DNA of 51,806 nt from Chiloscyllium plagiosum (GCF_004010195.1 NC_057760.1:2325158-2376963); one strand, 5' to 3'. Shown: positions 2,221-47,164, counted from the first letter of the stretch. Program-made: numbers and translations. Notes: a model not told the origin generated them from the sequence alone.

Positions 2221-3285
2221 GTAAGGGAATAGGGTGATGGGTAAAAGCACATTTAAATGACTTGTTGCCGTTTGTGGGACTGTTTGAAGATTGGGCTAGG
2301 CTATGTTTGCAGCTCCAAGGGAGCGCTGCATTGTCTGAGGGCTTCCTTGTCTGCACTGTTATGCCAGCCACTAATGAATTGGAAAGCATCGGGTTATGGG
2401 GGCCAAACTGCACAGACTAGAGCCATATTTCCTCCAGTTCAGATCACTAAAAGGTGATCTAGCTGAACTGTTCAAGATGAACAAAGAATTTGATAAAATA
2501 GATAGAAACTGCTCCCTCTAGTGGTGTGACTACAGGGGGCATGGCAAATTTTGTTGTGCTATAAACACTAGATGATAATTTTCCATTGACACCAACTTGA
2601 GGCTTGGAGATCCTGCTATGCACCCGTTTGGAATTTTGTCACTCAGCAGGTGGTGAATTCCTTACTGTCAGTGTCCCAGGGAAGGGGAACAGTTGCCATT
2701 GACCAGAAACTGAAACAGACAATAGCAATATAAATGTTGTCCTGTAGCAAGTAATTTATCCTTGCATTTCCCCAAGGTCTGTTCACATTTTACAAGGCAC
2801 AAGTCAAGAGGGTGATTTAATGCTCCCCAGCTGCCTGGATGAGTGCTAGTCCACAGGAGGCTCATGGGCACCCCATCCATCTCCTTCAATATTTACTCCC
2901 TCTGTCACCAACGATCAATAACAGCAGTGTGCACTGCAGCAACTCACAAAGGGTCCTCAACAGCACCATCCAAGCCATCTTGAAGGACCTAGGCAGCACA
3001 TATATGGGGACACCATCACTGGCAAGTTCTCCTCTGAGCCACCCACCATTTTGACTTAGAAATGTATCACCAATCCTTCATTGTTGATGGGCAATAATCC
3101 TGAAATTCCCTTCCTAGCGGCACTATGGGTGTATCTACACCACGTGGACGGCAGTGGTTCAGGAGTGCAGCTCACCATCACTGCCTCAAGGGCAATTAGA
3201 GATGGGTAATAAACATAGTGACACCCACATCATGAAAGAAAACTGTCCCAGGCAACTATTGAAACTCAATCTTGAATATTTAAGA

Positions 3286-3570
3286 TGTGAAGGTGCCAGT
3301 GTTAGATTAGGGTGGACAGAGTTAAAAATAACACAACACCAGGTTATAATCCGACAGATTTATTTGGAAGTACAAGCTTTTGGAGTGCTGCTTGTATGTC
3401 AGGTAGCTCTACGTCATATGATACTTTGATCATTTACTTGCAAATTCTGTGTCCTATGTATCCTGTCCCACTAGTTACCAGACGAAGGAGCAGCGCTCCA
3501 AAAGCTTGTACTTTCAAATAAATCTGTTGGACTATAACCTGGTGTCGTGTGATTTTTTTTTAACCTTGTG
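3286..3570. mobile_element. Short fold-back element (family C, hammerhead-bearing), degenerate
   Basis: Inverted arms (aacaccaggttataatccgacagatttatttggaagtacaagcttttggag and its reverse complement at about 3495-3565). TSD tatttaaga at 3277-3285 and 3571-3579. Confidence 0.75.
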
Positions 3571-3897
3571 TATTTAAGACAGAAGTTAATCTCAGTGTTA
3601 TTTTAAGTTAAAGGTAATGGGGATAGCGCAGGAAGATGGTGTCAATGTAGATCAGCCATGATCTCATTCAATGCTGAAGCAAGTTCCTAATTGTTCCCAC
3701 TTATATTTACCTACATGACACCACTGTGGGTGGTTGTGAGACCCTACTTTAGAGATGCATGTTCATTGGTTGTGCCTGATGATGAGTCGAGGATTGGTGG
3801 TGGGTTGAAGAGGTGGAGATATACAAAGTGACACAGAGGAGCAGAGGTCAGATCTGTTGGCCTTGGGGTTTAATGAGAATGATGACCCTTGTGACAG

Positions 3898-4037
3898 GAG
3901 ACCTATGTGAAGATGTGCCAGCTGTTCAACACACTCTCTGTGGTCACCTTGGAGAAGCCCTTCCTCAAGGAAGAGGAGGTACGGAGGGGCCAGCGCTGTG
4001 TGGCAGAGTTCCCAGGAGAGGGCGGAGAATGGAACAG
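3898..4037 (+). CDS. TDRD10: TDRD10 coding exon (start of Tudor domain)
   Basis: gacag|GAG ... AACAG|gtcagt, phase 0 in and phase 2 out. Encodes ETYVKMCQLFNTLSVVTLEKPFLKEEEVRRGQRCVAEFPGEGGEWNR. Confidence 0.9.
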
Positions 4038-4359
4038 GTCAGTGAGCTCCTTTATTGCTTCCCTAGCAATAAAATTGACAACAGACTCGTTGCTTTGATC
4101 CCAAAGGGATTTACATCCTGCCCGGTTGATGCTGGAGGCATGTCATTTGAAAACTTGCCAATGTTGAACCACCGTTGTAGAAATACCCAGCACAGGAGAA
4201 GGCCATTGGCCCACTCCACCTGTGTCAGCTCTTTGACAGAGCAATCTTCATAGATCCCTCTGCTTCCCCCCTAGGATTGACGTAATGAATGCATGATGGG
4301 GCATTTAAATATCCTTTGCACCTTTTATGATATCCATTAGCAACGTCTCTAAATCTTAC

Positions 4360-4580
4360 TCGTGCCTCAAGAGTCAGAAAGTTGGAAGGTTGAGTCCCAC
4401 TCCAGAGGCTTGAGCCAGCACTGAGGGAGTGCCATGTTGTTGGAGGTGCTGTTTTGTGGGCGAGACAGTCTGTGCAGATCTGTTCACAGGTGTGCGAATG
4501 TGCACACGTGCACATACCCACTTCTTCAAGAGAGTAACAGGCATGTTCTCTCTGGTACGCTGGACCATTTTTAATCGTTA
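4360..4580 (+). mobile_element. Deu-domain SINE (SacSINE1-like), decayed
   Basis: tRNA-like head ggttgagtcccactccag followed by cagcactgagggagtgcc...tggaggtgctg, resembling the recalled DeuSINE consensus. Confidence 0.55.
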
Positions 4581-4676
4581 AATCACCAAGGTGCTGGGGC
4601 CAGATGTGCTCCTGAATCTGTCTGAACTCCAGTTGGTTCCTGCCTTGTTACTTGCTCCCATTCACCTTTAATGTGG

Positions 4677-4817
4677 ACAAAGTTTAAAAAATCAGACAAC
4701 ATCAGGTTATAGTCCAACAGGTTTATTTGGAAGTATAGCTTTTGGAGCGCTGCTTCTTCATCAGGTGACTAGTTAACTTTGTCCACCCCAGTCCAACACT
4801 GGCACCTCCACATCATG
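4677..4817. mobile_element. Short fold-back element (family C), asymmetric
   Basis: Same arm sequence as 3286-3570. Near-perfect 13-bp TSD acctttaatgtgg (4664-4676) / acctttattgtgg (4818-4830). Confidence 0.75.
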
Positions 4818-4918
4818 ACCTTTATTGTGGGGTCTGGTGCAGCTACTGATGCACAGTGCCACCTGCAGCTCCAAATCAGTATTACCAATCAAAGTCTTGG
4901 TCAACATAATTCAGAAAT

Positions 4919-5140
4919 GCCAGTGTTGGACTGCGGTGGACATCAGTTAAAAATCGCCCAACACCAGGTTATAGTCCCAACAGGTTCATTTGGAAGCACT
5001 ATCTCTCTGAGCACTGCTCCTTCATCAGGTAATTGTGGAGTGACTCCACAACCATCTGATGAAGGAGCAGCGCTCCGAAAGCTAGTGCTTCCAAATAAAC
5101 CTGTTGGACTATAACTTGGTGCTATGTGATTTTTAACTTG
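4919..5140. mobile_element. Short fold-back element (family C), near-perfect palindrome
   Basis: Arms about 4945-5040 and 5044-5138, centred on ttgtggag-tga-ctccacaa. Confidence 0.8.
5053..5087 (+). ncRNA. Minimal hammerhead ribozyme motif (family C)
   Basis: cat-CTGATGA-a-ggagc(agc)gctcc-GAAA-g-CTA-gtg. Intact core, 5-bp stem II, stem I cat/gtg. Confidence 0.7.
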
Positions 5141-5801
5141 GTCAACGTAGACACATCCCAAAACCCAGGTGGGCCTGAACGAAAAGAATCTCTGGTCTTG
5201 CTGTCATCAGCCACCTCTGGATGGGCAGTGGTGATGGATGCACACAAGTTTAAAAAAAAAATCCACCCCCAGGTCAGGTGTTGGTGTTGCCATTGCCTTC
5301 CAGAGCTGATCAGCTAGCAGACGTGCCATCAGCTGCCGAGGTTTGGAGTTATTTAAGATGGTCCTTAAAACTGGCCTGTCTGACTGAGTCTTTGGTCACC
5401 TGGCCCCAAACTGTCCTTACCCAGCTCAGTTTTTATTCTTGTTCTGATTTAAGCTCCCAAGAGTCACCCCGTCCAGAAGCAAGTTCTTGCACACGGACTC
5501 ATGGATGACAGTCGCATTCATTGAGATTGTTAACATCTTTAGGAACTTGGAGGTGGTGAATCTGGCTAAAATAGAAGCCTGCGATGATTGGGAGGAGGGG
5601 GAAGAGGTTGCTGTAGACAGCAGGACACTGCATACTGGTCTCCCTCAGCCCCACCCGGCAATGCTTGAACATCACAGCCACAACAGATCGCACTTGACCT
5701 TGCTGAGTGTTCTCTCTATTTGGTATTCTCTCTTTTTCCCCTCAGTGCTCCAAAAAAGAGGATTATATCTCATTGCCCACCTTGCTCCTTTCTGTCTGTA
5801 G

Positions 5802-5956
5802 GTGCTGGATTGTGGATGTGGTGGAGAGTCGGGTCATCCTATTTTATGTGGATTCAGGGAGTACAGCCTGTGTCCCAGCATCATCCGTGAAATCTCTGGA
5901 CAGCGATGAGTTCTGGACCATCCCGCCTCTCGTTCAGCCCTTTGTCCTACAGCAAG
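5802..5956 (+). CDS. TDRD10: TDRD10 coding exon (Tudor domain)
   Basis: tctgtctgtag|G ... CAAG|gtgagt. Encodes CWIVDVVESRVILFYVDSGSTACVPASSVKSLDSDEFWTIPPLVQPFVLQQ; SLDSD.FWTIPPL.QPF is a TDRD10 hallmark as recalled. Confidence 0.93.
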
Positions 5957-6179
5957 GTGAGTCTCCTCGTCATGTTGGCTTTCTGTTCTGGTTTGTCTTC
6001 GGCAACCATCCCACTATACTGTCCTTGGCCCCCCGGCACAACATAACAAGCAGGGCATTTCACCCTCACCAATTTGTCCTTCAATCTGTGATGCAACGGG
6101 GATGGTATGGTGGCTGAGTGATTAGCACTGCGCTCTCTCTCCGCCAGGGACCAGGTTCAATTCCAGCTTTTGGGTGACT

Positions 6180-6842
6180 AGAGAAGGTGCAAAACTTGAC
6201 CTACTGTTGGGAAATAAGGCAGGGCAGGTGACTGAGGTGTCAGTGGGGGAGCACTTTGGGGCCAGTGACCATAATTCCATTAGTTTTAAAATAGTGATGG
6301 AGTAGAATAGATCAGATCTAAAAGTTGAAGTTCTAAATTGGAGAAAGGCTACTTTTTGATAGTATTAAGCAAGAACTTTCAAAAGCTGATTGGGGGCAGA
6401 TGTTCGCAGGTATAGGGACAGCTGGAAAATGGGAAGCCTTCAGAAATGAGATAACAAGAGTCCAGGAACAATATATTCCTGTTAGGGTGAAAGGAAAGGT
6501 GTAGGGAATGCTGGATGACTAAAGAAATTGAGGGTTTGGTTAAGAAAAAGAAGGAAGCAAATCTAAGGTATAGACAGGATAGATCGAGTGAATCCTTAGA
6601 ATATAAGGGCAGTAGGAGTGTACTTAAGAGGGGAAAAAAGGGGACATGAGATAGCTTTGACAAATAGAATTAAGGAGAATCCAAAGGGTTTTTACAAATA
6701 CATTAAGGACCAAACGATAACTAGGGAGAGAATAGGGCCCCTCAAAGATCAGCAAGGTGGAACCGCAGGAGATGGGGCAGATACTAAATTAGTATTTTGC
6801 ATCAGTATTTACTGTGGAAAAGGATATGGAAGATATAGAATA
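6180..6842 (+). mobile_element. CR1 LINE ORF2 fragment (endonuclease C-terminus and linker)
   Basis: Translates to LDLLLGN...VGEHFGASDHNSISF and RIKENPKGFYKYIK...RERIGPLKD, with frameshifts. Confidence 0.85.
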
Positions 6843-6844
6843 TA

Positions 6845-9800
6845 GTACTCTTAAGTGTACTCTTCTAAGGATTCACTCAATCTTTGCTGTTTATACCTGA
6901 CATATGCTTCCTCCTTTTTCTTGACCAACTTCTCTAGCCCTCCAGCTTTCCCTACATCCACCAGCGTTTCCTTTCAACCTAACAGGAATATACTGTCTCT
7001 GGACTCATTTCATTTTTGAATGCTTCCCATTTTATAGTTGTTGCTTTATCTGAGAACATCTGCTCCCTGCCCCCATTAACTTTTGTAAGCTCTTGCCTAA
7101 TACTCTCAAAATTGGCCGCCTCCAATTCAGAACTTTAGTACAATCCCAATAAGGTGATCATCCCTTTCTAATTTCTCAGTTCCACCCAAATAATTTCCCT
7201 GGACCTACTCCCAGGAATATCCTCCCTAAATACAGCCATAATGTTATCCCTTATCAAAAATGCTGCTCTATCTTTCCCATAGCATTTGTATCCTGGAACA
7301 TTAAGATGTCAGCCATGTCCATCCCTGAGCCACCTATCTGTAATTACTGTGATTCCCAGTCCCATATTTCGAACCATGCCCCGTGTTCATCTCCCCTCCC
7401 TGTTAGGCCTGCATTGAAATAAATACAGTTTAATTCATCAGTCCTACCTGGTTCTCTGCTTTGTTTTTGCCTGCCCTGACTGTTTGACTTGCTTGTTTTC
7501 CCAACTGTACCATTTTCAGACTGAGCTCTTTCCTCACTATCTCCCTGGGTGCCAACCCCCAGCTTACTAGTTTAAATCATCCCAAGCAGCTCTAGCAAAT
7601 CTCCCTGCCAGTACATTAGTCCCCTTCAGGTGCAATCTGTCCTCCTTATACACGTCACTTATACTCCAAAGTGTAATGCTGGAAAAGCACAGCAGGTCAG
7701 GCAGCATCTGAGGAGCAGGAGAATCGACGTTTCGGGCATAAGCACTTCATCAGGAATGAGGCTTGTGGATCGGGGCTGACAGATAAATGGGAAGGGGGGT
7801 GGGGTTAGGGGGAAGGTAGCTGGGAAAGCGATAGGTGGATGAAGGTGAGGGAGAAGGTGATATCAGAGGGGGGAGTGATGTAAGGGTCTGGACAGTGGTG
7901 CTAAGTTGGAGGCTTGGAGATGCAGGTAAATTTCTGACGGATGTGGAAGCATCCGTTCCCAGGATGACCAATTCTATCTCAGAAAGTCCCAGATGACCTC
8001 CTGCTTCCATGATCGCAATTTCCCTTCCCACGTGGTGGTTGATGCCCTCCAGTGCATCTCCTCCACTTCAGGTACCACTGCCTTTTGAACCCAACCCTTC
8101 CCAACTCACAAGGACAGAACCCCCCCCCCCCTGTTCTTCACCTTACACCCCACCAACCTCTGCATACAATGCATCATCCTCTGCCACTTCCGCCACCTCC
8201 AAATGGACCCCACCCCTATCAGCGTTCCAGAAAGACGATTCCGTCCGCAACTCCCTCGTCAGGTCCACATCCCACTCCTGGCACCTTTCCTTGCCACCAT
8301 AGGAAGTGCAAAACCTGCGTCCACACCTCCATCCAAGGCCCCAAGAGATCCTTCCACATCCACCAGAAATTTTCCTGTCACCTACTGCATCCATTGCACC
8401 CAGTATGGTCTCCTCTACATCAGGGAGACAGGACACCTTCTTGCGGATCATTTCAGAGATCATCTCTGGGACACCCGCACCCACCAACCCCACCGCCTCG
8501 TGGCTGAATACTTCAAACTCCCCCTCCCACTCCGTCAAGGACAATCGTTACCACCCAACGCCTGGAGGAGGAATGCCTCATATTCTGCCTTGGGACCCTA
8601 CAACCACACAGGATAAATGTGGATTTCAACAGCTTCCTCATTTCTCCTCCCCCTATGTTATCCCAGTCCTAAGCCTCCGACTCGGCACTGCCCTCCGGAC
8701 CCATCCATCACTTCCCCTCTGACCTATCACCTTCATCCACCTATCGTTTTCCCAGCTGTCTCCCCCCGCCACCCCCAAACCCACCCCCTTCCCATTTATC
8801 TCTCAGCCCCAATCCACAAGCTTCATTCCTGATGAAGGGCTTATGCCCAAAATGTAGGTTCTCCTGCTCCTCGGATGCTGCCTGACCTGCTGTGCTTTTC
8901 CTGCACTACACTCTCGACTCTGAGCTCCAGCATTTACAGTCCTCATTTTCTCCTTCCACTTCTACTCCAGAAGAGATTCCAATGATCCAAAAATATGAAC
9001 CCTTGTCCCTTGCACCAGCTCCTCAGCCACGTATTCATCTGCTCTATCCTCTTATTATTACCCTCACTAACTCATAGCCTCGAGAATAATCCAGATATTA
9101 AGACCATAAAGCCATAGGAACAGAAATCGGGCGATTCGGCCCATAGAGTCTGCTCTGCCATTCTGTCATGTCTGATAGGTTTTTCAATTTCTTTTTCCCA
9201 CTTTCTCTCCATATCCTTTGATTCCCCTGGCAATCAAGAACTTATCTATCTCTGTCTTTAAATATACTCCATGCCCTGGCCTCCACAGCCCCCTGTGGCA
9301 ATGAATCCCACAGATTCCCCACTCTCTGGCTGAATCAGTTTCTCCTTATCTCCGTTCTGAAGAGTCTCCCCTTTACTCTAAGGCTGTGCCCTCGGGTCCT
9401 CGTCTCTCCTGCCAACGCAAACATCTTCCCAATGTCTAATCAAGGACTAACCTTGAGGACTTCCCTTTTTAAATTCCTGCCTAACTTCCTATATTGTCCC
9501 TTCAGAATGTCATCCTTTTCCCTTCCTGTGTTGTTACTTCCAATGTTTACAACAACCTCCTGCTAGACCCTCTCCCCTTTTGAGAACATTCTGCACTCTC
9601 TCAGAGATATCCATGATCCTGGCTCCAGGGAGGCAACACACCGTTCTGATTTCTTGCTGTTGGCCACAGAAATGTCTATCTGTGCCTCTGACTGCAGAGT
9701 GCCCTATCGTAATTGATCACTTGGAACCTGACGCACCCCTCATTACAATAGAGCCAGTCTCGGTATCAGAAACTTGGCTGTTCATGCTACATTCCCCTGA

Positions 9801-15089: not shown

Positions 15090-15210
15090 GGCGAAAGTGA
15101 GGACTGCAGATTAGAGTCGGGTGTGTGGTGCTGGAAAAGCACAGTAGGTTAGGCAGCATCCGAGGAGCAGGTATTTTGATGTTTTGGGCAAAAGCCCTTC
15201 ATCAGGAATC
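15090..15210 (-). mobile_element. PLE family A terminal fragment with degenerate hammerhead
   Basis: Reverse complement reads gattcCTGATGAagggc(tttt)gcccAAAAcatc followed by the family A tail. Confidence 0.75.
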
Positions 15211-16701: not shown

Positions 16702-17020
16702 GGGCGGTACGGTGGCACAGTGGTTAGCACTGTTGCCTCACAGCACCAGAGACCTGGGTTCAATTCCCGCCTCAGGCAACTGTCTGTGTGGAGTTTGCAC
16801 ATTCTCCCTGTGTCTGCATGGGTTTCCTCCGGGTGCTCCAGTTTCCTCCCACAGTCCAAAGATGTGCAGGTTAGGTGAATTGGCCACACAAAATTGCCCA
16901 TAGTATTAGGTGAAGGGGTAAGCATAGGGGAATGGGTCTGGGTGGGTTGCTCTTCGGAGGGTCGATGTGGACTTGTTGGGCCGAAGGGTCTGTTTCCACA
17001 CTGTAAGTAATCTAATCTAT
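16702..17020 (+). mobile_element. HE1 SINE (tRNA-derived V-SINE), full length
   Basis: A/B-box head ggcacagtggttagcactg...ggttcaattcc, V-domain gtgtggagtttgcacattctcc...gggtttcctccgggtgctcc, LINE-derived tail gggccgaagggtctgtttcc. Confidence 0.9.
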
Positions 17021-18230: not shown

Positions 18231-20559
18231 AGAGAAAGAGGCAATGCAAGAAATAGGAGTGGACATAGTCCATTCGACACTCAATGCTGCACCATTTACT
18301 GAAGAGAATGTTCTTCAATCTTCTGTTTTCCTCAGACTCAATTCCCTTAGTTACCACAAACTCAGCCTTCAACACACAAACGATTGAGCAACCACAAATC
18401 TCTGACATGGAGGATTTCCAAAGATTCAAGAACCCTGAGTGATGAGATTTCCCCTCTCTTTACCTCCGTTCCAGATGGCCAAACTGCAGCCCATTTCAGA
18501 CATCTTCAGAGAGGGGAAAGCATTTTGTTTGAGATCAAGCTATAGAGGTCATAGGCAGTCAATACAATTGTTCTTCATATAACAATCCCAGGAATTTGTC
18601 TTGTAAACTATGCTGCTGTCCTAAAAGTCTAATATGTTCATCCTTGGGTAAGGAGAATAAAACTAGACATACTCCAGCTGTGATCTTAGCAAGGGCTCTG
18701 TAGAATTGCAGCAAGTTTTTTTTTCCCCCTCCCTCACTGTTGCAGTGATGGAAGACTAACGTGCCGTTGCTTTCTGGACATGCATTTTAGAATCCCTACA
18801 GTGTAGAAGCAGATCATTTGGCCACTGAGTCCACACCGACCCTCTGAAGAGATAATTCTGAGATTTATGTACAAGGACAATCCCTGAATACCAGCATCTC
18901 CCAGTTGCAACACAGTGTATTAAGAAAAACAAAGCCTGCTTTTCTGTTTTCCCTCAAATGGAAAATTGCATATTTGCATATGATATTCCACCTGGTCTTG
19001 TTCATTCATTAAATCTATGCAATTCCTTCTACATCTGCCTCAGTTAACATTCCAATTTGGTTTTGTCCAGATCAACAGAAAAATGATTTTCTGTTTCTTT
19101 ACTCAAGTTCTATAATACCAATTGATGTTTTTAGGCTGCCTGTTCAATTCTGTTATATCAATGGATTTAAACCCAGGCCTTCTGGCCTAGAGATATGAAC
19201 ACTACCACAGCAGCAGTGCCTACTTGTAGATTAAACACAAAATAATGCAGCTGCTGAAAATCTAAAATACAAAAGTAGTGCTGGAGAAACTCAGCAGGTC
19301 TGGCAGCATCTGTCTGATACGACACCTTGTGAACTATTTGTCGACTTTTGTTTAAAAATCAACCTATTCAAGTGTGTAAAGCAGCACCTCTGGAGCAGGG
19401 CCTTCTTGCTCAGAGGTGGGGACACTACCACTAGAGCATGAGATCCAAATGATTCAGGTAGGTTGGAGCCATGACTGGAATGATTGGGACTTGAACTCTG
19501 ACATGCTGGAGGGAGACACCAACACTGCACCTGTAAATCTTCATAAATTGCATTCTTCATCTTTATTGATGCCGACCTCAGTTTAAGACCACGCATTAAT
19601 CCTAAAGCTAATCAACTAGTAATGGCCTGCTATTTTGAAAATATCCTGTTTATTCCAACTTTGTTCTGGTCTTCAACTAATTTGCATTCCAAGCAAATAT
19701 AATACTTCCAATCTTGAGAGTGCTGAAGTCAGTCTCATTAAATCCACTGTGCACTCTGTTGGTTACAACTCTAGAACGTTTTCTCAGCAAATCCAGTTTC
19801 CCTTTAAATGTAGTTATTTGTTTTAAGCACCCAGTTAAAACATCCTTGTTAATAAAATGCAAGGTCATCATAGTCTTACTAGACCTTAGGGCTGCTCTGT
19901 GATGATCACATTCATCATGCCTCAGCCAAGGGGAGAGCTCTTCATGGTAACCTCAGCCAGTGCAGGATTGAACCCACACTGTAGGCATCACTCTGCAATT
20001 CAAAACTAGCTAACTCGCCCCCATCCTTGTTGATAGCATAAATGCTGCTAAGGTGAGGGTTCGTGTAACACAGTGGTAGTGTCTATTCTCTGAGCCAGGA
20101 GATCTGGGTTCAATCCCATCTGCTGCAGAGGTATGTAACATCTCTGATCAGGTTGATTTGAAAATACCTTTACCCTAACTGGTGTCCGGCTCGCCCCTTT
20201 ACTCTGTCCCACTGATGTAGAAGAGCAAGGTTACACTTGCTACAATTCAGAGGATCTAACTGGAATCCCAAAGATGTAACAGGACAAAAAAAAACACATT
20301 GGCAGCACGTCCTCAACAGAATCAGGCCTATAGGATGAAAAAAAAAAGCAATCTTTGCAGAATTAAAGCTACATACTATTTGTCGATATGGAAAGAGCTG
20401 CTTCAGTACTGTAAAATCTCACCATTACCCTTCAAGTTCAAAAGGATCTGCCTCCAGCAGTGCGTTGAGAATGCATGTTGGATTTGAATGGCTGCCTGCT
20501 CCTCGATCTTGTCACCTATTCACTTGCAATATTCACAGTTGTAACAGATGTAAAGATCT

Positions 20560-27231: not shown

Positions 27232-28610
27232 ACATTCCCCTAGAGACTGATTACTAAACTTAGTGATAGATTTTTTAGATTAGATTACAGTGTGAAAACA
27301 GGCCCTTCGGCCCAACAAGTCCACACCGACCCGCCGAAGCGCAACTCACCCATACCCCTACATTTACCCCTTACCTAACACTACGGACAATTTAGCATGG
27401 CCAATTCACCTGACCTGCACATCTTTGGACTGTGGGAGGAAACCGGAGCACCCGGAAGAAACCCACGCAGACACGGGGAGAATATGCAAACTCCACACAG
27501 TCAGTCGCCTGAGGCGGGAACTGAACCCGGGTCTCTGGCGCTGTGAGGCAGCAGTGCTAACCACTGTGCCACCGTGCCGCCCATACGGACTAAGCCCCAC
27601 CCTCTGCAACTGGATCCTCAGTTTCCTGACTACAGGCCACAATCAGTGAAGGTTGGGGACAATATTTCATCCTCATTAACACGCAGGACTGGAGCCCCCC
27701 AGGGGTGTGTACTCAGCCCCCTACTGCACTCACTGTATACCTCTGACTGCGTCACCAAATACCAGACTAATGCCATTTACAAGTTCACTGATGACACCAC
27801 CATAGTCTGACGAATCTCAGATGGCGACGAAACAGACTGCAGACGGGAGGTGGAAGACCTGGAAAAATGGTGCACTGAGAACAACCTAGCTCTCAATGCT
27901 GGCAAAACCAAAGAACCCATTATTGACTTTCGGCAGGATGTTACTCATGCCCCCCTACACATTAACAGCACAGAGGTGTAATGAGTGGAGAGTGTCAAGC
28001 TCCTGGGAGTGATCATCCACAACAAGCTTTCTTGGACTCTCCATGTGGACGCACTGGTTACAAAGACCCAACAACGTCTCTTCTTCCTCAGGCAGCTGAG
28101 GAAATTTGGCATGACGGTGAATACCCTCGCCAACTTTTATAGGTACGGCATCGAGAGCATTCTGTCTGGATGTATCACTACCTGGTATGGCAACTGTACC
28201 ATTCAAGATCGGAGACGGTTACAGAGAGTGGTGAACTCGGCCCGGACAATCACAAAGGCCAACCTCCCATCTATAGAATCCATCTCCCAGGCCCACTGTC
28301 AGGGAAAGGCCGCCAGCATTCTCAAAGATCCATCCCACCCTGGCAATGTTTTTCTACAACCTCTACCATCGGGGAGAAGGTACAGAAGCGTGAACACACG
28401 CACCAGCCGGTTTAGAAACAGTTTCTACCCTGCTGTTGTTAGAATACTGAGTGGACTCTCAAACTCTTCACATTCGCCTGGACCTGGTGATTTTGTTTTT
28501 GCTGCTGGGGACCTATTATTTACTATCTGTGCTACTTCACTCTGTGATCTGCCTGTATTGCTCACAAGACAAAGCTTTTCACTGTCCCTCGGTACACGTT
28601 CAACTCAAAT
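27232..28610 (+). mobile_element. Rex-Babar/L2-like LINE RT 3' part, interrupted by an HE1 SINE
   Basis: GLSPTLCNWILSFLT; TGAPQGCVLSPLLHSLYTSDC...YKFTDDTT; QQRLFFLRQLRKF...LPSGRRYRS...RFRNSFYP. Confidence 0.85.
27275..27582 (-). mobile_element. HE1 SINE, full length
   Basis: Reverse complement of the 16702-17020 element. Confidence 0.9.
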
Positions 28611-30092: not shown

Positions 30093-30263
30093 AAAGTTAA
30101 AAAATCACACAACACCAGGTTTAATTGGAAGCACTAGCTTTCGGAGCGCTGCTCCTTCATTAGGTGGTTGTGATTATACCAAATAAACCTGTTGGACTAA
30201 AACTTGGTGTTGTGTGATTTTTTAAACTTTGTACACCCCAGTCCAACTCTGGTATCTCCAAAT
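30093..30263. mobile_element. Short fold-back element (family C); hammerhead on - strand (30132-30166) with CTAATGA core variant
   Basis: Inverted arms visible. Reverse complement reads cac-CTAATGA-aggagc(agc)gctcc-GAAA-gcta-gtg. Confidence 0.78.
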
Positions 30264-30286
30264 CAGTATTATATAAAAAAAAATGA

Positions 30287-33090: not shown

Positions 33091-34107
33091 TTAAAGTTGT
33101 GAATTCCACCCCCCCCCCCCCCCGCCTCGATTATATCTGGAACTCTTGGGAGTTCACAACCTTGGCTCAAGTTTGCAGAAATATTTCTGAGAAATAGGAG
33201 GGCCTGACAGACAAAATTTCCGCTGGGATCAGAGTGGGCACAGGAGAAAACTTGGACACTTTCAGGCAGCTTTTGGTCAAGTCCCACACAAAAGGTTATG
33301 AACACAATTAAGACCACATGGGACTGAGGGAGGGATATAACAGCCTGAATTAAAAGCTGGTTAAAAAGGAGAGAGAGTAGAAGCATAGGATAAATGGATC
33401 ATTCTTGAATGAGTAAACTTTGAGCAGTGGGACGTCCAAGGATTGGATTTATTTACAATTCATATCAATGATTTGGCCGTCAAGATTAAATGCAATGTTT
33501 CCAAAGTTTGCAGAAGGCTCAAAGCTGGGCGGGAGTGAGATGTAAGGGGTTGCAAAGACACTGAGGAGATTTGGACAGGCTACGAGAGTAGACAAAAATT
33601 TGGCAGATGGAATACAATATGGAGCCATGGGAGATCATCCACTTTATTTGGAAAACAGAAGTATTTCTTAAATAGAGGAAGGCTAGGAAGTACTGGACTT
33701 CAGAAACAGCTGGGGTGCCCTTGTTCGGGAGCCACTGAAAAGGTAACTTACAGGCACAACAAGTCACGAAGAAAGTAAATGGGATGTTATCCTTTATTAC
33801 AGAGGATGTGAGGACAGGAGTGAAGATACAACTGCTATAATTAGAGTCTTGGTGAGACTATACCTGGAGAACGGAGTACAGTTTTGGCTCATCAGGATAT
33901 TTCCTTTGGTTTGTTTTATTTGGGGGCGGGGAGGTGCTCAGAATGAGGGACGGAGAAGAGGACGAATTTCTTCACTCAGGTAGTGGTGAGGAATTCTCTC
34001 TCACAGGGGCTGTGGAGGTTCAGTCAGTCATTGAAGATGATCAAAACACGGAGGTTAATGGATTTCTACATGTTGTGGTTCTGTTCGCCGAGCTGGGAAT
34101 TTGCGTT

Positions 34108-34147
34108 GCAGACGTTTCGTCCCCTGTCTAGGTGACATCCTCAGGTG
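34108..34147 (-). ncRNA. Minimal hammerhead motif (family B), inverted copy
   Basis: Reverse complement reads cac-CTGAGGA-t-gtcacct(agac)aggggac-GAAA-c-GTC-tgc. Confidence 0.6.
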
Positions 34148-34539
34148 ATTGGGAGCCTTCTGTGAGAATGAGGACATGCCGCAACCCAAAGGACTAGCCA
34201 CACTACCATACATCAAGAGCATTTCCGAACTGACAGCCAGACTACTGTGACCACTAGGACTCACAACAGCACACAAACCAACAGCCACTCAGACAACAAC
34301 TCACCAAAACGAAGGACCCATGAGCAAAACCAATGTAGTGTACAAAATCCCATGCAAGGTCTGAACACTACATAGGACAAACAGGAAGACAGCTAACGAT
34401 CCACATCCATGAACACCAACTAGCCACGAAACGACACGACCAGCTATCCTTAGTTGCTACACACGCAGATGACATGCAACATGAATTCGACTGGGACCTG
34501 GAGGAAACATCACAGAAGCGCTTCACAGGAGGCTCCCAA

Positions 34540-34579
34540 GCACTGAGGATGTCACCTAGACAGGGGACGAAACGTCTGC
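34540..34579 (+). ncRNA. Minimal hammerhead motif (family B)
   Basis: gca-CTGAGGA-t-gtcacct(agac)aggggac-GAAA-c-GTC-tgc. Stem I gca/tgc, stem II 6 of 7 pairs. Confidence 0.72.
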
Positions 34580-34977
34580 AACACAAATTCCCAGCTCGGC
34601 GAACAGAACCACAACAACGAGCACCCGAGCTACAAATCTTCACACAGACTTTGGATTTCTACATGTCAAAAATATGCAGGGATAGTGCAGGGGAACAAAA
34701 ACAAGATGTTGTTGAAATGAAAGATTGACCGCGATCTCACTGAATTGCGGAGTGGGCCCAAGGGGCTGTAAACCCCTCTACGGTTTCTTATGAAAGCTGG
34801 ACAGCTTGTGGTGTGACTGAACTGGAGACTGGCAATTCCTCACAATGCAGGACAGAGCAGCAGCAAAGTATCACGTGGCTTGTGGCCTCCATTTCCTACT
34901 GGAACTAATCGCTCATCGAACACTCAATTTCTAACAGAGATTTACAGAAAAACAAAACAGCAACTGCTGTTACTCAC

Positions 34978-36178: not shown

Positions 36179-36262
36179 CAAAAGTGAGGACTGCAGATGC
36201 TGGAAATCAGAGTCTAGATGAGAGTGGTGCTGGAAAAGCACAGCAGGTCAGGCAGCGTCCGA
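36179..36262 (-). mobile_element. Isolated ~85-bp PLE family A tail
   Basis: Matches the family A 3' tail; 14-bp TSD ggttatgggggagg (36165-36178 / 36263-36276). Confidence 0.8.
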
Positions 36263-36898
36263 GGTTATGGGGGAGGGGTAAGGCTGGAGAATGGCGCCGA
36301 GGATGATCTCAGACTTGATGGGCTGGTGACTCCCACTTCTGCTCCTATGTGGGTCACATGACCAAGATGAGAGGACAGGAAAAGGAGAGGGTGTGAATGG
36401 GTGAGAGTGTGGGATCATGGAGGTACCTCAGGATGTTGCCTGGGGTTGGAGTGTTTCAGCCATGACAGAGATTGCACAGTGAACACGGAGGGGGGGAGGG
36501 GACACTCGACTGAGGTGAATAGGACCCTGAGGACCTTCTCCCCCTTAGCAGAGCGGTCAGTCAGCATTGGGCATAGATTTAAGGTAAACAAAGGGGCTGA
36601 AAGTTTAAAGAGGATGAAGAGGGCAGTGGTATCTGGGACACATGCCTGAAAAGGGTGGAAGAGGCTGGATTCATCACAATATTTAAGAATTAACTTGAAA
36701 TAGCCTTGGGGCAATTGCTGAATATTGAGACAATAATGTATAGATGCTTGACAACCGGCAGGCAGCGATACAGTGACGCAAAAGGCCTTTTTTAATGTTG
36801 CAAAGCTCAGCTATTACCATTACCCCTCTCTTCAGTGTAAACGGGACATGAATTACCTCATAATCGCAAAATAGAACCACTCACAGAGAGTCACTTAC

Positions 36899-36996: not shown

Positions 36997-37312
36997 ATAC
37001 AATCCCTACAGTGTGGGAAGCAGGCCATTCGACCCACTGAGTCCACACTGACCCGCCAAAGAACATCTAATGCAGACTTACTCCCAACCTAGCCTGCACA
37101 TTCCTGGGCAATTTCAGCATGGCCAATCCACCCTAACCTGCACATCTTTGGACTGCAGGAGGAAACCGGAGCACCCGGAAGAAACCCATACAGACATGGG
37201 TGGGGGAAGAATGTGCAAACTCCACACAGGCAGTCACCAAAGGCCTGTAATCGAACCCAGGTTCCTGGTGCTGTAAGCCAGCAGTGGTAACCATTTATCC
37301 ACTACGTCACCT
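36997..37312 (-). mobile_element. HE1 SINE
   Basis: V-domain ggaggaaaccggagcacccggaagaaaccca...tgcaaactccacac. Confidence 0.85.
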
Positions 37313-42449: not shown

Positions 42450-42750
42450 CTTAGATTCTCCTACAGTATGGAAACAGGCCCTTTGGCCCAACAAGTCCAC
42501 ACCAACTCTCCGAAGAGTAGCCCACCCAGACCCCATTCCCCTCCGACTAATGCACCTAACACGATGGGCAATTTAGCACGGCCAATTCACCTGTGGGAAC
42601 CTTTGGAGTGTGGGAGGAAACCGGAGCATCCGGAGGGAACCCACGCAGGCACGGGGAGAATGTGCAAACTCCACACAGACAGTCGCCCGAGGCTGGGACC
42701 CTGGTGCTGTGAGGCAGCAGTGCTGACCACTGAGTCACCGTGCCGCCACC
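42450..42750 (-). mobile_element. HE1 SINE
   Basis: Head, V-domain and tail present on the minus strand. Confidence 0.85.
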
Positions 42751-42769
42751 TCATGGAATGTGTTGGAAT

Positions 42770-43063
42770 GGTTATAGTCCGACAGGTTTATTTGAAATAG
42801 CAGGAGGTGCACTGAAGGGATAGAACCTGCATAAACACACAGGGGGAAGAGGAAATGGGGGGAATGGAGAGAAGTGGAGCAAAGGGCCTCATGACCGTAT
42901 AGGCCAGTGGCTGCCAGGGAGTGGACAGATTTGGTGAGGAGGGAGCGAGAAAGCACGGGTAGAGTGGGAAGGGGTATCTGACAAGGGAGCAGCGCTCTGA
43001 AATGCTTGTGATTTCAAATAAACCTGTTGGACTGTAACCTGGTGTTGTGAGACTTCTGACTTT
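42770..43063. mobile_element. Fold-back element (family C), degenerate, longer spacer
   Basis: ggttatagtccgacaggtttatttgaaat inverted against atttcaaataaacctgttggactgtaacc; decayed core ctgacaagggagcagcgctctgaaa. Confidence 0.65.
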
Positions 43064-43569: not shown

Positions 43570-43981
43570 CTGTGGGAGCAGAAGAAGAGTGGTTAGCCCG
43601 TGACAGATAGATAGTCTCAGTACAACCACCTCCAAGTTTTCGGCCTATTCCCCCCCCCACCAATCTCTGTCGACTCCCTGGCAAGCATTACACCATTCGG
43701 GAAACAGGCCCCTCTGCTCCACGTCAGCCCCCAGTTCCTCTCCCCCTTGTGCATTTATGCAGCTTCTACCCCTTCAATGCACCTCTGCCTTGACCATTCC
43801 CGACTCCACATTTCCCACCCAGCCCGAGCTTTCTGGAGCGGGGAGAGGTTTCTTCTGAATTCATGGCTGGAGTTATTAGCTACTCGTCTGATAGACACCC
43901 TCCCTGGCTCCGGTATCCCCATACATGTGGGAACATCTGTGGACGTCCCCAGGTAAAAAGGGCTAGACTGAAGAAACTCAC

Positions 43982-44750: not shown

Positions 44751-44943
44751 GAATGTCAACTCGATACTTGGACAACAGGGCAAACACACAACCTGAACAT
44801 GCAGCAGCATAGTGTCAGAGCAGGTGCGGGGAGAGACGCACTGAAACAGAAGTCCTTTACTGATGTTCAGGGTCAACTCTCCAGTGTCAGGGGGCTGATG
44901 GGATGAGGATAACCAAAGCAAACTGCTCACACTTAGAGATCTG

Positions 44944-45525
44944 ATGTGGAGGTGCCAGTGTTGGACTGAGGTGGACAAAGTCTGAAGTCACATGACATGA
45001 GGTTGTAGTCCAATAGGTTTATGGGTAATATCGATTATCCAAATAAGATCGAGGTCCCAGTGCTTGGGTAAACTGTACGACCTGAACATCAGATTATCCA
45101 AACAAAGTACCCTCCGTTCACGTTGTTCAGATAATTGAGGATGCCCTGTATTTAAAACCATAAGCTTCTAGAGGGCTAGCTCCTTCATTGGGGCGACACG
45201 GTGTCCGAGTGGTTAGCACTGCTGCCTCACAGCACCAGGGATCCAGGTTCGATTCCCAGCCTAGGGTAACTGTCTGTGTGGGTTTCCTCCGGGTGATCTG
45301 GTTTCCTCCCGCAGTCCAAGAGATGTGCAGTTCAGGTGAACTAGCCATGCTAAATTGCCCATTGTATTAGGTGCATTAGTCAGGGGTAAATATAGGGTAG
45401 GGGAATGGGTCTGGGTGGGTTACTCTTCAGAGGGTCAGTGTGGACTTGTTGGGCCGAAGGGCCTGTTTCCATACAGTAGGGAATCTGCATCAGCTGACCT
45501 GGTGTCGTGTGACTTCTGACATTAC
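44944..45525. mobile_element. Family C element with nested insertions (possible MITE fragment about 45027-45150; HE1 SINE about 45190-45485 on +)
   Basis: Left arm atgtggaggtgccagtgttggactgaggtggacaaag, right arm acctggtgtcgtgtgacttctgac. TSD agagatctg (44935-44943 / 45526-45534). Confidence 0.7.
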
Positions 45526-46030: not shown

Positions 46031-46729
46031 CTGCACAGGGAGACAAGGAGACAACGGATCAATACAGGAAGACTGCTCAGCCCATCCAGGACATTCGAAC
46101 ACTGGCCATCTGCCTCACATTGAGCATGGTGGGTCAGATGTTTAAGCAGAGCTTCACGGCTATGACAGAAGGAACCAGGCGTCAGAAAACACCAAACCCA
46201 CTGATCCAACCTGAACACATCTCTTTCATCTTTGATCTCTTTACCCGTCTCTCTCTCTCGAGCAACCTGACTGAATCCTTCGGCAATTTCCACACCACCT
46301 GTGCAACCTGCCCTTCAACTTGTGGTGGTAGGATCACTCCGGAAAATCCGCTCAGCAATCACCTGAAGGAATCCAACGCGAGAATGGGAAAATAAAACAA
46401 CCTCCGAAATAAGAACAGGATATAGCTGGTGAAAATCAGCAGGTCCGGCAGCATCCATGGAGAGAAAGCAGAGGTAATGCTTCAAGGCTGGTGTCTCTGC
46501 AATGGAACTGAGAGCAGTGGGGGTTAAGCAGAAAGATGAGCTGGGTGGTTGGAGGAGGAGGGGGGAGTGGACAGGTGGAGGCAGAGCCTAGACACAGATA
46601 TGAAGGAGTTATGTCAGAATAGAAGGATCATAAGATCCCATGGTGCAGAAAGAGGCCTTTCAGCCCATCAAGCCTGCACCAAACCACCGAAGAGCATCCC
46701 AACCCCCACCCTATCCTTGTAAACCTGCA

Positions 46730-46974
46730 TTTCCCACGGCCAATCCACCCTAACCTGCACATCCCTGGGCACCATGGGACAATTTCCCACGGCCAATCCA
46801 CCCTAACCTGCACATCCCTGGGCACTATGGGACAATTTCCCACGGCCAATCCACCCTAACCTGCACATCCCTGGGCACCATGGGACAATTTCCCACGGCC
46901 AATCCACCCTAACCTGCACATCCCTGGGCACTATGGGACAATTTCCCATGGCCAACCCACCCTAACCTGCACAT
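46730..46974. repeat. 53-bp tandem repeat (about 4.6 copies) derived from the interior of an HE1-type SINE (-)
   Basis: Units start at 46730, 46783, 46836, 46889 and 46942; the SINE tail lies at about 46627-46730. Confidence 0.92.
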
Positions 46975-47164
46975 TTGTAGATGAGAAGCTGAATAAGTGA
47001 GCACGACGAGAGCAGAGGGCTGCAGACAATGGGTAGGCTGTATTGGAAGTAACCCATGACAGGAACACGATTGTCAGGGTGAACAAAAATCACCGACAGA
47101 TCAGGCTCTATAGTTAGTGAAATCAATGTGAAGTTCTAGAGGTTGCAGAGTCCCCGAGTAGAAA

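What the first reader, a model, noticed from the sequence alone, without database searches (positions are those of the whole stretch)
3286..5140. Short non-coding fold-back elements carrying minimal hammerhead ribozymes, with TSDs (family C, six copies in 52 kb)
Seen: one ~120-nt module (gatgtggaggtgccagtgttggact..ggtggacaaagttaaaaatcacacaacaccaggttatagtccaacaggtttatttggaagcactagctttcggagcgctgctccttcatcaggt) occurs as inverted pairs at 3286-3570, 4677-4817, 4919-5140, 30093-30263, 42770-43063 and 44944-45525. None has coding sequence, arm truncation varies, and three copies have 9-13-bp TSDs. The inner end of the module is a hammerhead (cac-CTGATGA-aggagc.agc.gctcc-GAAA-gcta-gtg), intact at 5053-5087. 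Established: Penelope-like elements carry minimal type I hammerheads in their pseudo-LTRs and often insert with an inverted partial LTR. Inference: this is a high-copy, non-autonomous, ribozyme-bearing retro-mobilised family that mimics a MITE. Variable long TSDs and asymmetric arms argue against a DNA transposon. I cannot tell whether it is already catalogued.
Basis: partly seen in the sequence, partly recalled or inferred. Interest (0 to 1): 0.72.

Follow-up and report, generated by a model that had tools for sequence, protein, structure and literature searches.

The report
Truncated fold-back Penelope retroelement ends
The six small hairpin-shaped repeats are real, but they look like the usual stump-sized insertions left by a Penelope-like jumping gene, each built from its ribozyme-bearing end piece, not a new kind of mobile element.

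Summary
Observation confirmed: six head-to-head insertions of one module, a minimal hammerhead intact only at 5053-5087, and 9-13-nt target duplications on 4 of 6. The asymmetry is not random: each insertion has one end with a 30-35-nt extension and one without (5 clear, 1 probable). This is the 'inverted pLTR plus tail' pattern published for Penelope-like elements (PLEs). Two other PLE families in the window show the same build with GIY-YIG remnants. Tens of thousands of contigs from three organisms show the long end sharply and the short end less cleanly. Family sequence runs at least 63 nt upstream of the hammerhead core. A coding PLE in a marine metagenome carries a 32/35-identical hammerhead 750 nt behind its endonuclease. 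The fold-back is probably made at each insertion; the two hammerheads lie on opposite strands and decay neutrally. New detail: the module's AATAAA is a used poly(A) signal (1,559 of 4,279 RNA reads), upstream of both insertion ends, so copying must start inside read-through RNA. The family's own parent ORF was not found; cleavage untested. The scan reported this same pattern on many other windows of this genome.

The parts
3277..3285 (+). c1 left target duplication (9 nt, exact; partner 3571-3579)
3286..3408 (-). c1 tailed arm: decayed hammerhead, AATAAA, short-end motif, about 30-nt tail; starts about 6 nt upstream of the core
3409..3570 (+). c1 tail-less arm; 3416-3478 is upstream family sequence, not a unique spacer
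   Evidence: contigs of three runs align from 3416-3419 onward and RNA loose ends at 5043/5044 resemble it
3571..3579 (+). c1 right target duplication
4664..4676 (+). c2 left target duplication (13 nt, 1 mismatch; partner 4818-4830); overlaps the arm end by 4 nt
4677..4772 (-). c2 tail-less arm with hammerhead (G12 changed to A), starts about 9 nt upstream of the core
4773..4817 (+). c2 tailed arm: last 45 nt only; its end at 4815-4817 is the family's long terminus
   Evidence: loose-end peaks at 4815, 4816, 4817 in X3, X12 and X15
4896..4905 (+). c3 left target duplication (10 nt exact, 13 with 1 mismatch; partner from 5137)
4906..5042 (-). c3 tailed arm with decayed hammerhead; starts 13 nt upstream of the core
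5043..5139 (+). c3 tail-less arm; starts 13 nt upstream of the core, so the centre is a near-perfect palindrome
   Evidence: (I24)
5053..5087 (+). minimal type I hammerhead: 3-bp stem I, CUGAUGA, extra A, 5-bp stem II, GAAA, palindromic AGCU instead of stem III, predicted cut after A5084
   Evidence: features as defined in PMC4209133; activity not tested
5094..5134 (+). poly(A) cassette: AATAAA 5094-5099, poly(A) addition at 5111-5114 in family transcripts, GU/U-rich stretch downstream
   Evidence: 646 + 913 RNA reads with poly(A) loose ends; sequence
30093..30265 (.). c4: tail-less left arm on minus (hammerhead with G5 changed, 16-nt deletion) and tailed right arm on plus without hammerhead; no clear TSD
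42763..43063 (.). c5: deleted left piece (probably tailed), about 175 nt of another repeat, tail-less right arm 42975-43063; 6-nt duplication at 42751/43065
44944..45525 (.). c6: tailed left arm broken by a 130-nt insert and a 300-nt SINE-like repeat, short tail-less right arm; 9-nt exact TSD at 44935/45526
7656..8969 (.). internal control, PLE family A: same fold-back with GIY-YIG remnant, hammerheads on both arms, tail on one end, 13-nt TSD (1 mismatch)
34059..34666 (.). internal control, PLE family B: same fold-back with a GIY-YIG-like remnant (read by eye), hammerheads on both arms, tail on one end, 15-nt exact TSD

Best explanation
The six elements are dead-on-arrival, very short insertions of the terminal repeat (pLTR) of a high-copy endonuclease-positive Penelope-like retrotransposon, probably of the Neptune type, in a shark-like genome. 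Shown: the module is hammerhead, then AATAAA, then a short end, then a 30-35-nt tail; each insertion joins a tailed and a tail-less arm head to head between variable 9-13-nt duplications; the AATAAA is used, with poly(A) added about 25 nt before the short end and about 60 nt before the tail end. Inferred: the element's GIY-YIG endonuclease nicks both target strands 9-15 nt apart; each nick primes reverse transcription at one of two internal start sites on an RNA that reads past the poly(A) site (the upstream pLTR of a tandem, or read-through); both cDNAs stop early, often just upstream of the hammerhead, and are joined head to head. The fold-back is therefore made anew at each insertion. The hammerhead belongs to the parent's cycle (it would need a same-strand dimer) and is inert in the fold-backs.
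For: One tailed and one tail-less end in 5 of 6 copies clearly and in c5 probably; tail 30-35 nt. Family-wide loose ends pile at 4815-4817 with unrelated A/T-rich flanks in 3 of 3 contig sets, and again near the short end at 5139 and 4687. Published PLE anatomy matches: inverted pLTR, 31-bp tail on one end, 8-10-bp TSDs (PMC3846280); inverted 5'-truncated copy and 30-40-bp tail (PMC8557442); two internal RT start sites that define the tail and nicks on both strands (PMC11167929); opposite-strand min-hammerhead pairs 100-700 bp apart ascribed to truncated PLEs (PMC4209133). Families A and B in the window have the same build plus coding remnants. L002 has a GIY-YIG ORF end, about 750 nt of UTR, a hammerhead 32/35 identical to family C's, then AATAAA; L001 has a head-to-head junction with RT; the top-scoring RT match among 121 proteins is a catshark PLE protein, P0035. 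Six different inner junctions; the two arms of c1 share variants.
Against: No direct (tandem) pLTR pair of family C is in the window. 6 of 7 hammerhead-bearing arms start within 13 nt of the core, which a short stand-alone RNA would also give. The short-end peak at 5139 is mixed with copies that simply run on into the tail. No empty site was seen among the 15 of 1,899 joints listed. PMC3846280 explains head-to-head junctions by self-priming on an antisense template, not by two primings.
Confidence: 0.78

Rival explanations
1. A stand-alone, non-coding pLTR-only RNA of about 130 nt (a SINE-like non-autonomous PLE derivative starting just before the hammerhead) is the template, mobilised in trans by a PLE protein; the fold-back is still made at insertion.
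For: 6 of 7 hammerhead-bearing arms start within 13 nt of the core; 82 contigs in X15 have unrelated flanks at 5056; no parent ORF found; pLTRs alone suffice for trans-mobilisation in rotifers (PMC3846280); non-autonomous PLE derivatives are known (PMC8557442).
Against: c1's right arm carries at least 63 nt more upstream sequence that many contigs and RNA reads share. A unit-length RNA would be polyadenylated at 5111-5114 and lose both RT start sites. Coding family A also leaves stubs that begin at its hammerhead (15104-15209).
Confidence: 0.16
2. The fold-back unit itself is the mobile, ribozyme-processed element (MITE-mimicking retrozyme).
For: All six are fold-backs; hammerhead present; high copy.
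Against: Six different centres and arm lengths; hammerheads on opposite strands, base-paired to each other; 3 of 6 copies (c2, c4, c5) hold at most one hammerhead arm; no head-to-tail repeats, which define animal retrozymes (PMC7229834; bioRxiv 2026.07.22.740005); cores decay like their flanks.
Confidence: 0.04
3. A MITE of a DNA transposon whose inverted repeats happen to contain a hammerhead-like word.
For: Short, non-coding, inverted arms, A/T-rich flanks.
Against: TSD length varies from 6 to 13 nt; the ends are systematically unequal by 30-35 nt; internal length and junction differ in every copy; the hammerhead has all four extra PLE min-HHR features and recurs beside PLE coding sequence.
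Confidence: 0.02

Closest known systems
Insertion units of EN+ Penelope-like elements: inverted pLTR, tail, TSD (Arkhipova et al. 2013, PMC3846280; Craig et al. 2021, PMC8557442; passages read)
   Same: Head-to-head inverted terminal repeat, 30-40-nt tail on one end only, TSDs of about 8-10 nt, heavy 5' truncation.
   Different: Here both arms are only 45-160 nt, with no ORF and no direct pLTR pair; the parent was not located.
Minimal hammerheads (min-HHR) of metazoan PLEs (Cervera and De la Pena 2014, PMC4209133; parts 1-2 of 4 read)
   Same: Type I core, extra base between positions 9 and 10.1, G10.1-C11.1 pair, palindrome in place of stem III; pairs on opposite strands 100-700 bp apart ascribed to truncated PLEs.
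   Different: Stem I is only 3 bp and stem II 5 bp (they report 4-5 and 7-8 in Schistosoma); palindrome AGCU and triplet CUA, where families A and B in this window have ACGU and GUC. The parts read name fishes, coelacanth, Xenopus and reptiles, not sharks; the supplements were not opened.
Poseidon PLE of Anolis (PAc) in vitro (Frangieh et al. 2024, PMC11167929; parts 1-2 of 4 read)
   Same: Two internal RT start sites bounding the tail, nicks on both target strands, no RNA reads ending at the hammerhead cut site.
   Different: In PAc the hammerhead and tail overlap the ORF start; here they are non-coding. PAc priming is described as homology-free, whereas 5 of 12 ends here overlap the TSD by 2-8 nt (small sample, untested).
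Non-LTR retrozymes of animals (Cervera and De la Pena 2020, PMC7229834, passages; Li et al. bioRxiv 2026.07.22.740005, parts 1-3 of 5)
   Same: Non-coding, hammerhead-bearing, PLE-pLTR-related, long TSDs.
   Different: Retrozymes are head-to-tail tandems of 150-450 nt that give circular RNA; these are head-to-head pairs.

Membership tests
EN+ Penelope-like element insertion | Inverted 5'-truncated terminal repeat joined head to head | tested here: met
   6 of 6 loci
EN+ Penelope-like element insertion | 30-40-nt tail on one end only | tested here: met
   30-35 nt; 5 of 6 clear, c5 probable; family-wide end peaks
EN+ Penelope-like element insertion | Variable target duplication of about 8-15 nt | tested here: met
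   4 of 6 with 9-13 nt; chance 50 of about 3000; no empty site seen to prove duplication
EN+ Penelope-like element insertion | Minimal hammerhead in the terminal repeat | tested here: met
EN+ Penelope-like element insertion | Parent with RT plus GIY-YIG ORF carrying this terminal repeat | tested here: inconclusive
EN+ Penelope-like element insertion | Partial tandem with direct pLTRs | tested here: inconclusive
   Not present among the six window copies; genome not searchable
PLE minimal hammerhead (min-HHR) | Core CUGANGA/GAAA/UH, extra base 9-10.1, G10.1-C11.1, palindromic 15.2-16.2 | tested here: met
   All present at 5053-5087; stems differ in sequence but pair in families A, B, C and L002; family-majority bases restore decayed core positions (table 3)
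PLE minimal hammerhead (min-HHR) | Self-cleavage as a dimer | not testable with these tools
   No read ends piled at 5084 (table 6), but a poly(A) single-cell library cannot show a 30-nt product
Rfam hammerhead families | Score above a curated model threshold | tested here: not met
   0 hits at gathering score in the window; none at E<=10 in 3000-9000
Animal non-LTR retrozyme | Head-to-tail tandem units each with a hammerhead | tested here: not met
   0 of 6 loci; all pairs are on opposite strands
Animal non-LTR retrozyme | Circular or monomer RNA | tested here: inconclusive
   No such joint among 15 of 1,899 listed; library unsuited
MITE (DNA transposon) | Symmetric TIRs, fixed short TSD, uniform size | tested here: not met

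The most novel reading that the evidence does not exclude
The template is a separate short RNA, or the 5' pLTR of a tandem, that starts about 10 nt before the hammerhead and escapes its own poly(A) site. Both target strands are primed from the two RT start sites of one RNA, helped by 2-8-nt microhomology, so thousands of palindromes record the still unknown second-strand step of PLE integration. As a by-product the family has seeded many working poly(A) sites in shark transcripts.
Probability: 0.2. Interest if true: 0.5.

Novelty: new member of a known kind. Interest (0 to 1): 0.25.

Why it matters
Little as a discovery: the architecture and the ribozyme class are published for PLEs. It has some value as material. 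How PLEs make their inverted ends is still open (PMC8557442), and this family offers tens of thousands of natural products with two fixed outer ends and variable centres. The position of the used poly(A) site upstream of both ends is in vivo support for internal RT initiation, so far shown in vitro for one lizard element. The family may also donate poly(A) signals to host RNAs. Such copies are easily mislabelled as MITEs by repeat pipelines.

Tried and rejected
Rfam: no hit. Pattern scans: viral contigs 0 in 4 scans; metagenomes 0 for the AATAAA word, 2 loci for the hammerhead pattern; prokaryote genomes 0 and 1 hit, L003, with no similarity outside the pattern, taken as chance. Pfam on 8 window ORFs did not name the PLE remnants; tblastn did. 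Monomer folding of the 41-nt hammerhead does not give the hammerhead fold and is not better than shuffles (z -0.92); unconstrained dimer folding did not give the dimeric ribozyme either; neither says anything on activity. MAFFT did not align stem II across families, so pairs were counted by script and no covariance model was built. No listed holder of the stretch was on record as RNA. The paper on dimer cleavage by Luense et al. was not held and was seen only as summarised in PMC6765202. Seven paper searches found no description of this shark family or of poly(A) use in PLE pLTRs; Dfam and Repbase could not be searched, so it may be catalogued. Summed contig depth was not used as copy number. 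Rejected: random arm truncation, unique spacer in c1, selection on individual hammerhead copies.

Full report
Setting. The window is repeat-rich vertebrate DNA of 41-53% G+C with RT fragments, SINE-like repeats and several PLE remnants. That it is a shark is taken from my recall of the repeats and from earlier scan notes; I did not determine the species.

Observation. All six loci are there. A 23-nt word of the module occurs 7 times against 0 in 100 shuffles. A profile search finds 13 arm pieces, all within the six loci, together about 1,109 nt or 2.1% of the window. Arms are about 74-97% identical in pairwise local alignments. Target duplications: c1 9 nt exact, c2 13 nt with one mismatch, c3 10 nt exact, c6 9 nt exact, c5 6 nt, c4 unclear; an exact word of 9 nt or more appeared in 50 of about 3000 random end pairs. 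The hammerhead at 5053-5087 has the full core, an extra base between positions 9 and 10.1, a G10.1-C11.1 pair and a palindromic AGCU in place of stem III. These are the features that PMC4209133 lists for PLE minimal hammerheads (parts 1-2 of 4 read). Rfam does not score it.

The ends are not random. Read in hammerhead sense, arms end either within a few bases of one motif about 55 nt past the predicted cut, or 30-35 nt further on. Every insertion has one of each: clearly in c1, c2, c3, c4 and c6, and probably in c5, whose left piece is internally deleted. c3 therefore begins at about 4906. Family-wide, loose ends with unrelated A/T-rich flanks pile at 4815, 4816 and 4817 (743, 1147 and 885 contigs in X3; also in X12 and X15). 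A second pile lies at the short end (5139: 794 contigs; 4687: 523 in X3), though it includes copies that run on into the tail (24 of 2,652 loose ends were shown). This is the PLE 'tail': a 31-bp extension on one inverted pLTR with 8-10-bp TSDs in rotifer elements (PMC3846280, passages), 30-40 bp in general (PMC8557442, passages), and bounded by two internal RT start sites in the Anolis element, whose endonuclease nicks both strands (PMC11167929, parts 1-2 of 4).

Internal controls. Family A at 7656-8969 and family B at 34059-34666 have the same head-to-head build, a tail on one end, TSDs of 13 nt (one mismatch) and 15 nt (exact), hammerheads on both arms and coding remnants: tblastn hits for A, a GIY-YIG-like frame read by eye for B. 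Their stems differ in sequence from family C's yet still pair in the least decayed copies (5 of 7 listed have stem I of 3 bp or more). So coding PLEs make these fold-backs in this genome.

Abundance and age. 82,039 contigs of organism A (X3), 99,058 of organism C (X12) and 10,687 of organism D (X15) were laid, nearly all depth on the arms; contigs are not copies, so this says only 'tens of thousands'. Unique contigs cross outer junctions of c1, c2 and c3 in a second individual and in organism C (table 8, records 1, 7, 8, 17, 22, 23, 24), so these insertions predate that split. No empty site was among the 15 of 1,899 joints shown.

Is there a parent? Not found. 121 PLE proteins gave no tblastn hit beside a family C arm. 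But the module is not self-contained: contigs from all three contig runs align to the c1 'spacer' from 3416-3419 on, and 332 and 593 RNA reads have loose ends at 5043 and 5044 that resemble it. A hammerhead pattern scan found two marine-metagenome contigs. L002 holds the end of an ORF with a CxxxxCxxC linker and GIY-YIG-type endonuclease, about 750 nt of non-coding sequence, a hammerhead identical to family C's at 32 of 35 positions, and AATAAA. L001 holds the same end joined head to head to RT sequence. A linker zinc-finger-like motif marks Neptune and Nematis PLEs. The best-scoring match to the L001 RT among 121 proteins is a catshark protein, P0035, at 52% identity; by identity alone several other proteins rank higher. 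Outside the hammerhead L001/L002 share no DNA with family C, so this is a relative, not the parent. It shows how a long UTR leaves short copies without coding sequence. I also recall long coding copies with this kind of end in shark assemblies; that is recall and was not tested.

RNA. In a poly(A) single-cell run of organism A (about 2% of the run read), 4,279 reads were laid. 646 and 913 of them carry poly(A) at 5111 and 5114, 12-15 nt after AATAAA (5094-5099), where the DNA is not A-rich and a GU-rich stretch follows. Only 55 reads were 99% or more alike and the unique DNA between the elements had almost no coverage, so the RNA comes from other copies; how many loci, and whether host or element transcripts, is unknown. 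1,329 reads cover 5055, upstream of the predicted cut, and no pile of read ends was found, so much of this RNA is uncut; the library could not show a 30-nt cut product. The poly(A) site lies about 25 nt before the short end and about 60 nt before the tail end. A polyadenylated 3' end therefore cannot be the template: reverse transcription must start inside RNA that reads past this site (inference), in line with the internal initiation shown for the Anolis element.

Inner ends. Six of seven hammerhead-bearing arms begin within 13 nt of the core; c1's right arm is the exception, and four other arms begin downstream of it. I counted this after earlier scan notes raised it. It fits run-off at the 5' end of a pLTR-initiated RNA or a block at the ribozyme fold; I cannot separate these. 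All six centres differ. The two arms of c1 share several variants, as expected if one template gave both, or if the arms were converted later.

Ribozyme status. Against c3's right arm, six other arms differ at 9 of 66 core positions and 50 of 297 other positions (p=0.59; the reference's private changes inflate the second number). The copies decay neutrally. The family majority restores the core where rows were shown (3394, 3396, 3480, 5002, 5005, 5055, 40 of 223 rows shown). In c1 and c3 a transcript folds into one long hairpin that buries the hammerhead. PLE minimal hammerheads need a same-strand dimer and cut poorly (PMC4209133; PMC6765202, passages), which an opposite-strand pair cannot supply.

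Mechanism and odds. Most likely (0.78): staggered nicks on both target strands, two primings at the two internal start sites, two short cDNAs joined head to head, giving TSD, tailed arm, tail-less arm, TSD. The anatomy and the poly(A) site are shown; the enzymology is carried over from PMC11167929; the two-priming step is inferred, and PMC3846280 favours self-priming on an antisense template. Rivals: a pLTR-only non-autonomous RNA mobilised in trans (0.16), a mobile fold-back or retrozyme (0.04), a DNA MITE (0.02).

Novelty. PMC4209133 already reports opposite-strand pairs of minimal hammerheads 100-700 bp apart and ascribes them to truncated PLEs. Seven searches found no paper on this shark family; repeat libraries and the papers' supplements were not seen and may list it. 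The scan's index shows 99 notes on this genome that fit the word hammerhead, and those displayed reach much the same reading; they are unchecked notes, not support. Verdict: a new member of a known kind, interest 0.25.

Noticed in passing
window:22944-24783 (+): About 1.8 kb of a 5'-truncated coding PLE of family A: RT, CxxxxCxxC linker and GIY-YIG remnants, broken by stops and frameshifts; the hammerhead is missing from its end.
   Followed up: partly
window:5-800 (+), 15104-15209 (-), 36220-36264, 19274-19310, 46437-46461: More family A ends, one with GIY-YIG remnant and intact hammerhead at 697-730, one stub that begins at its hammerhead.
   Followed up: partly
window:45023-45150: About 130-nt single-copy insert inside c6 with short imperfect inverted ends, possibly a true DNA-transposon MITE.
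   Followed up: no
window:45191-45487, 16702-17013, 27286-27582, 42453-42747, 37003-37293: A 300-nt SINE-like family, 72-75% identical; one copy landed at the hammerhead of c6. It resembles shark HE1/V-SINEs (recalled, not tested).
   Followed up: no
window:48245-48400 (-): A probable host exon whose translation resembles the N-terminal RWD domain of UBE2Q-type enzymes (recalled; Pfam gave no hit on the whole frame).
   Followed up: no
window:43900-44800: Long 12-nt tandem array, 99% identical units; also 30-nt (12-401) and 53-nt (46676-46993) arrays.
   Followed up: no
ends of c1 left, c2 left, c3 right, c5 left, c6 left: The target duplication overlaps the element's end sequence by 2-8 nt in 5 of 12 ends, hinting at microhomology-assisted priming; no null test made.
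   Followed up: partly
L002:1-109 and 983-1091: Part of this PLE's 3' UTR is an inverted, 94% identical copy of its own coding linker region.
   Followed up: no
window:5084 (table 4): 358 of 2,885 RNA reads, but under 1% of DNA depth, carry a 2-nt insertion just after the predicted cut site that would lengthen stem I: a highly expressed locus or subfamily.
   Followed up: no
window:42804-42943 and 43651-43785: The middle of c5 is 74% identical to an inverted stretch 700 nt away: another repeat or an old local duplication.
   Followed up: no
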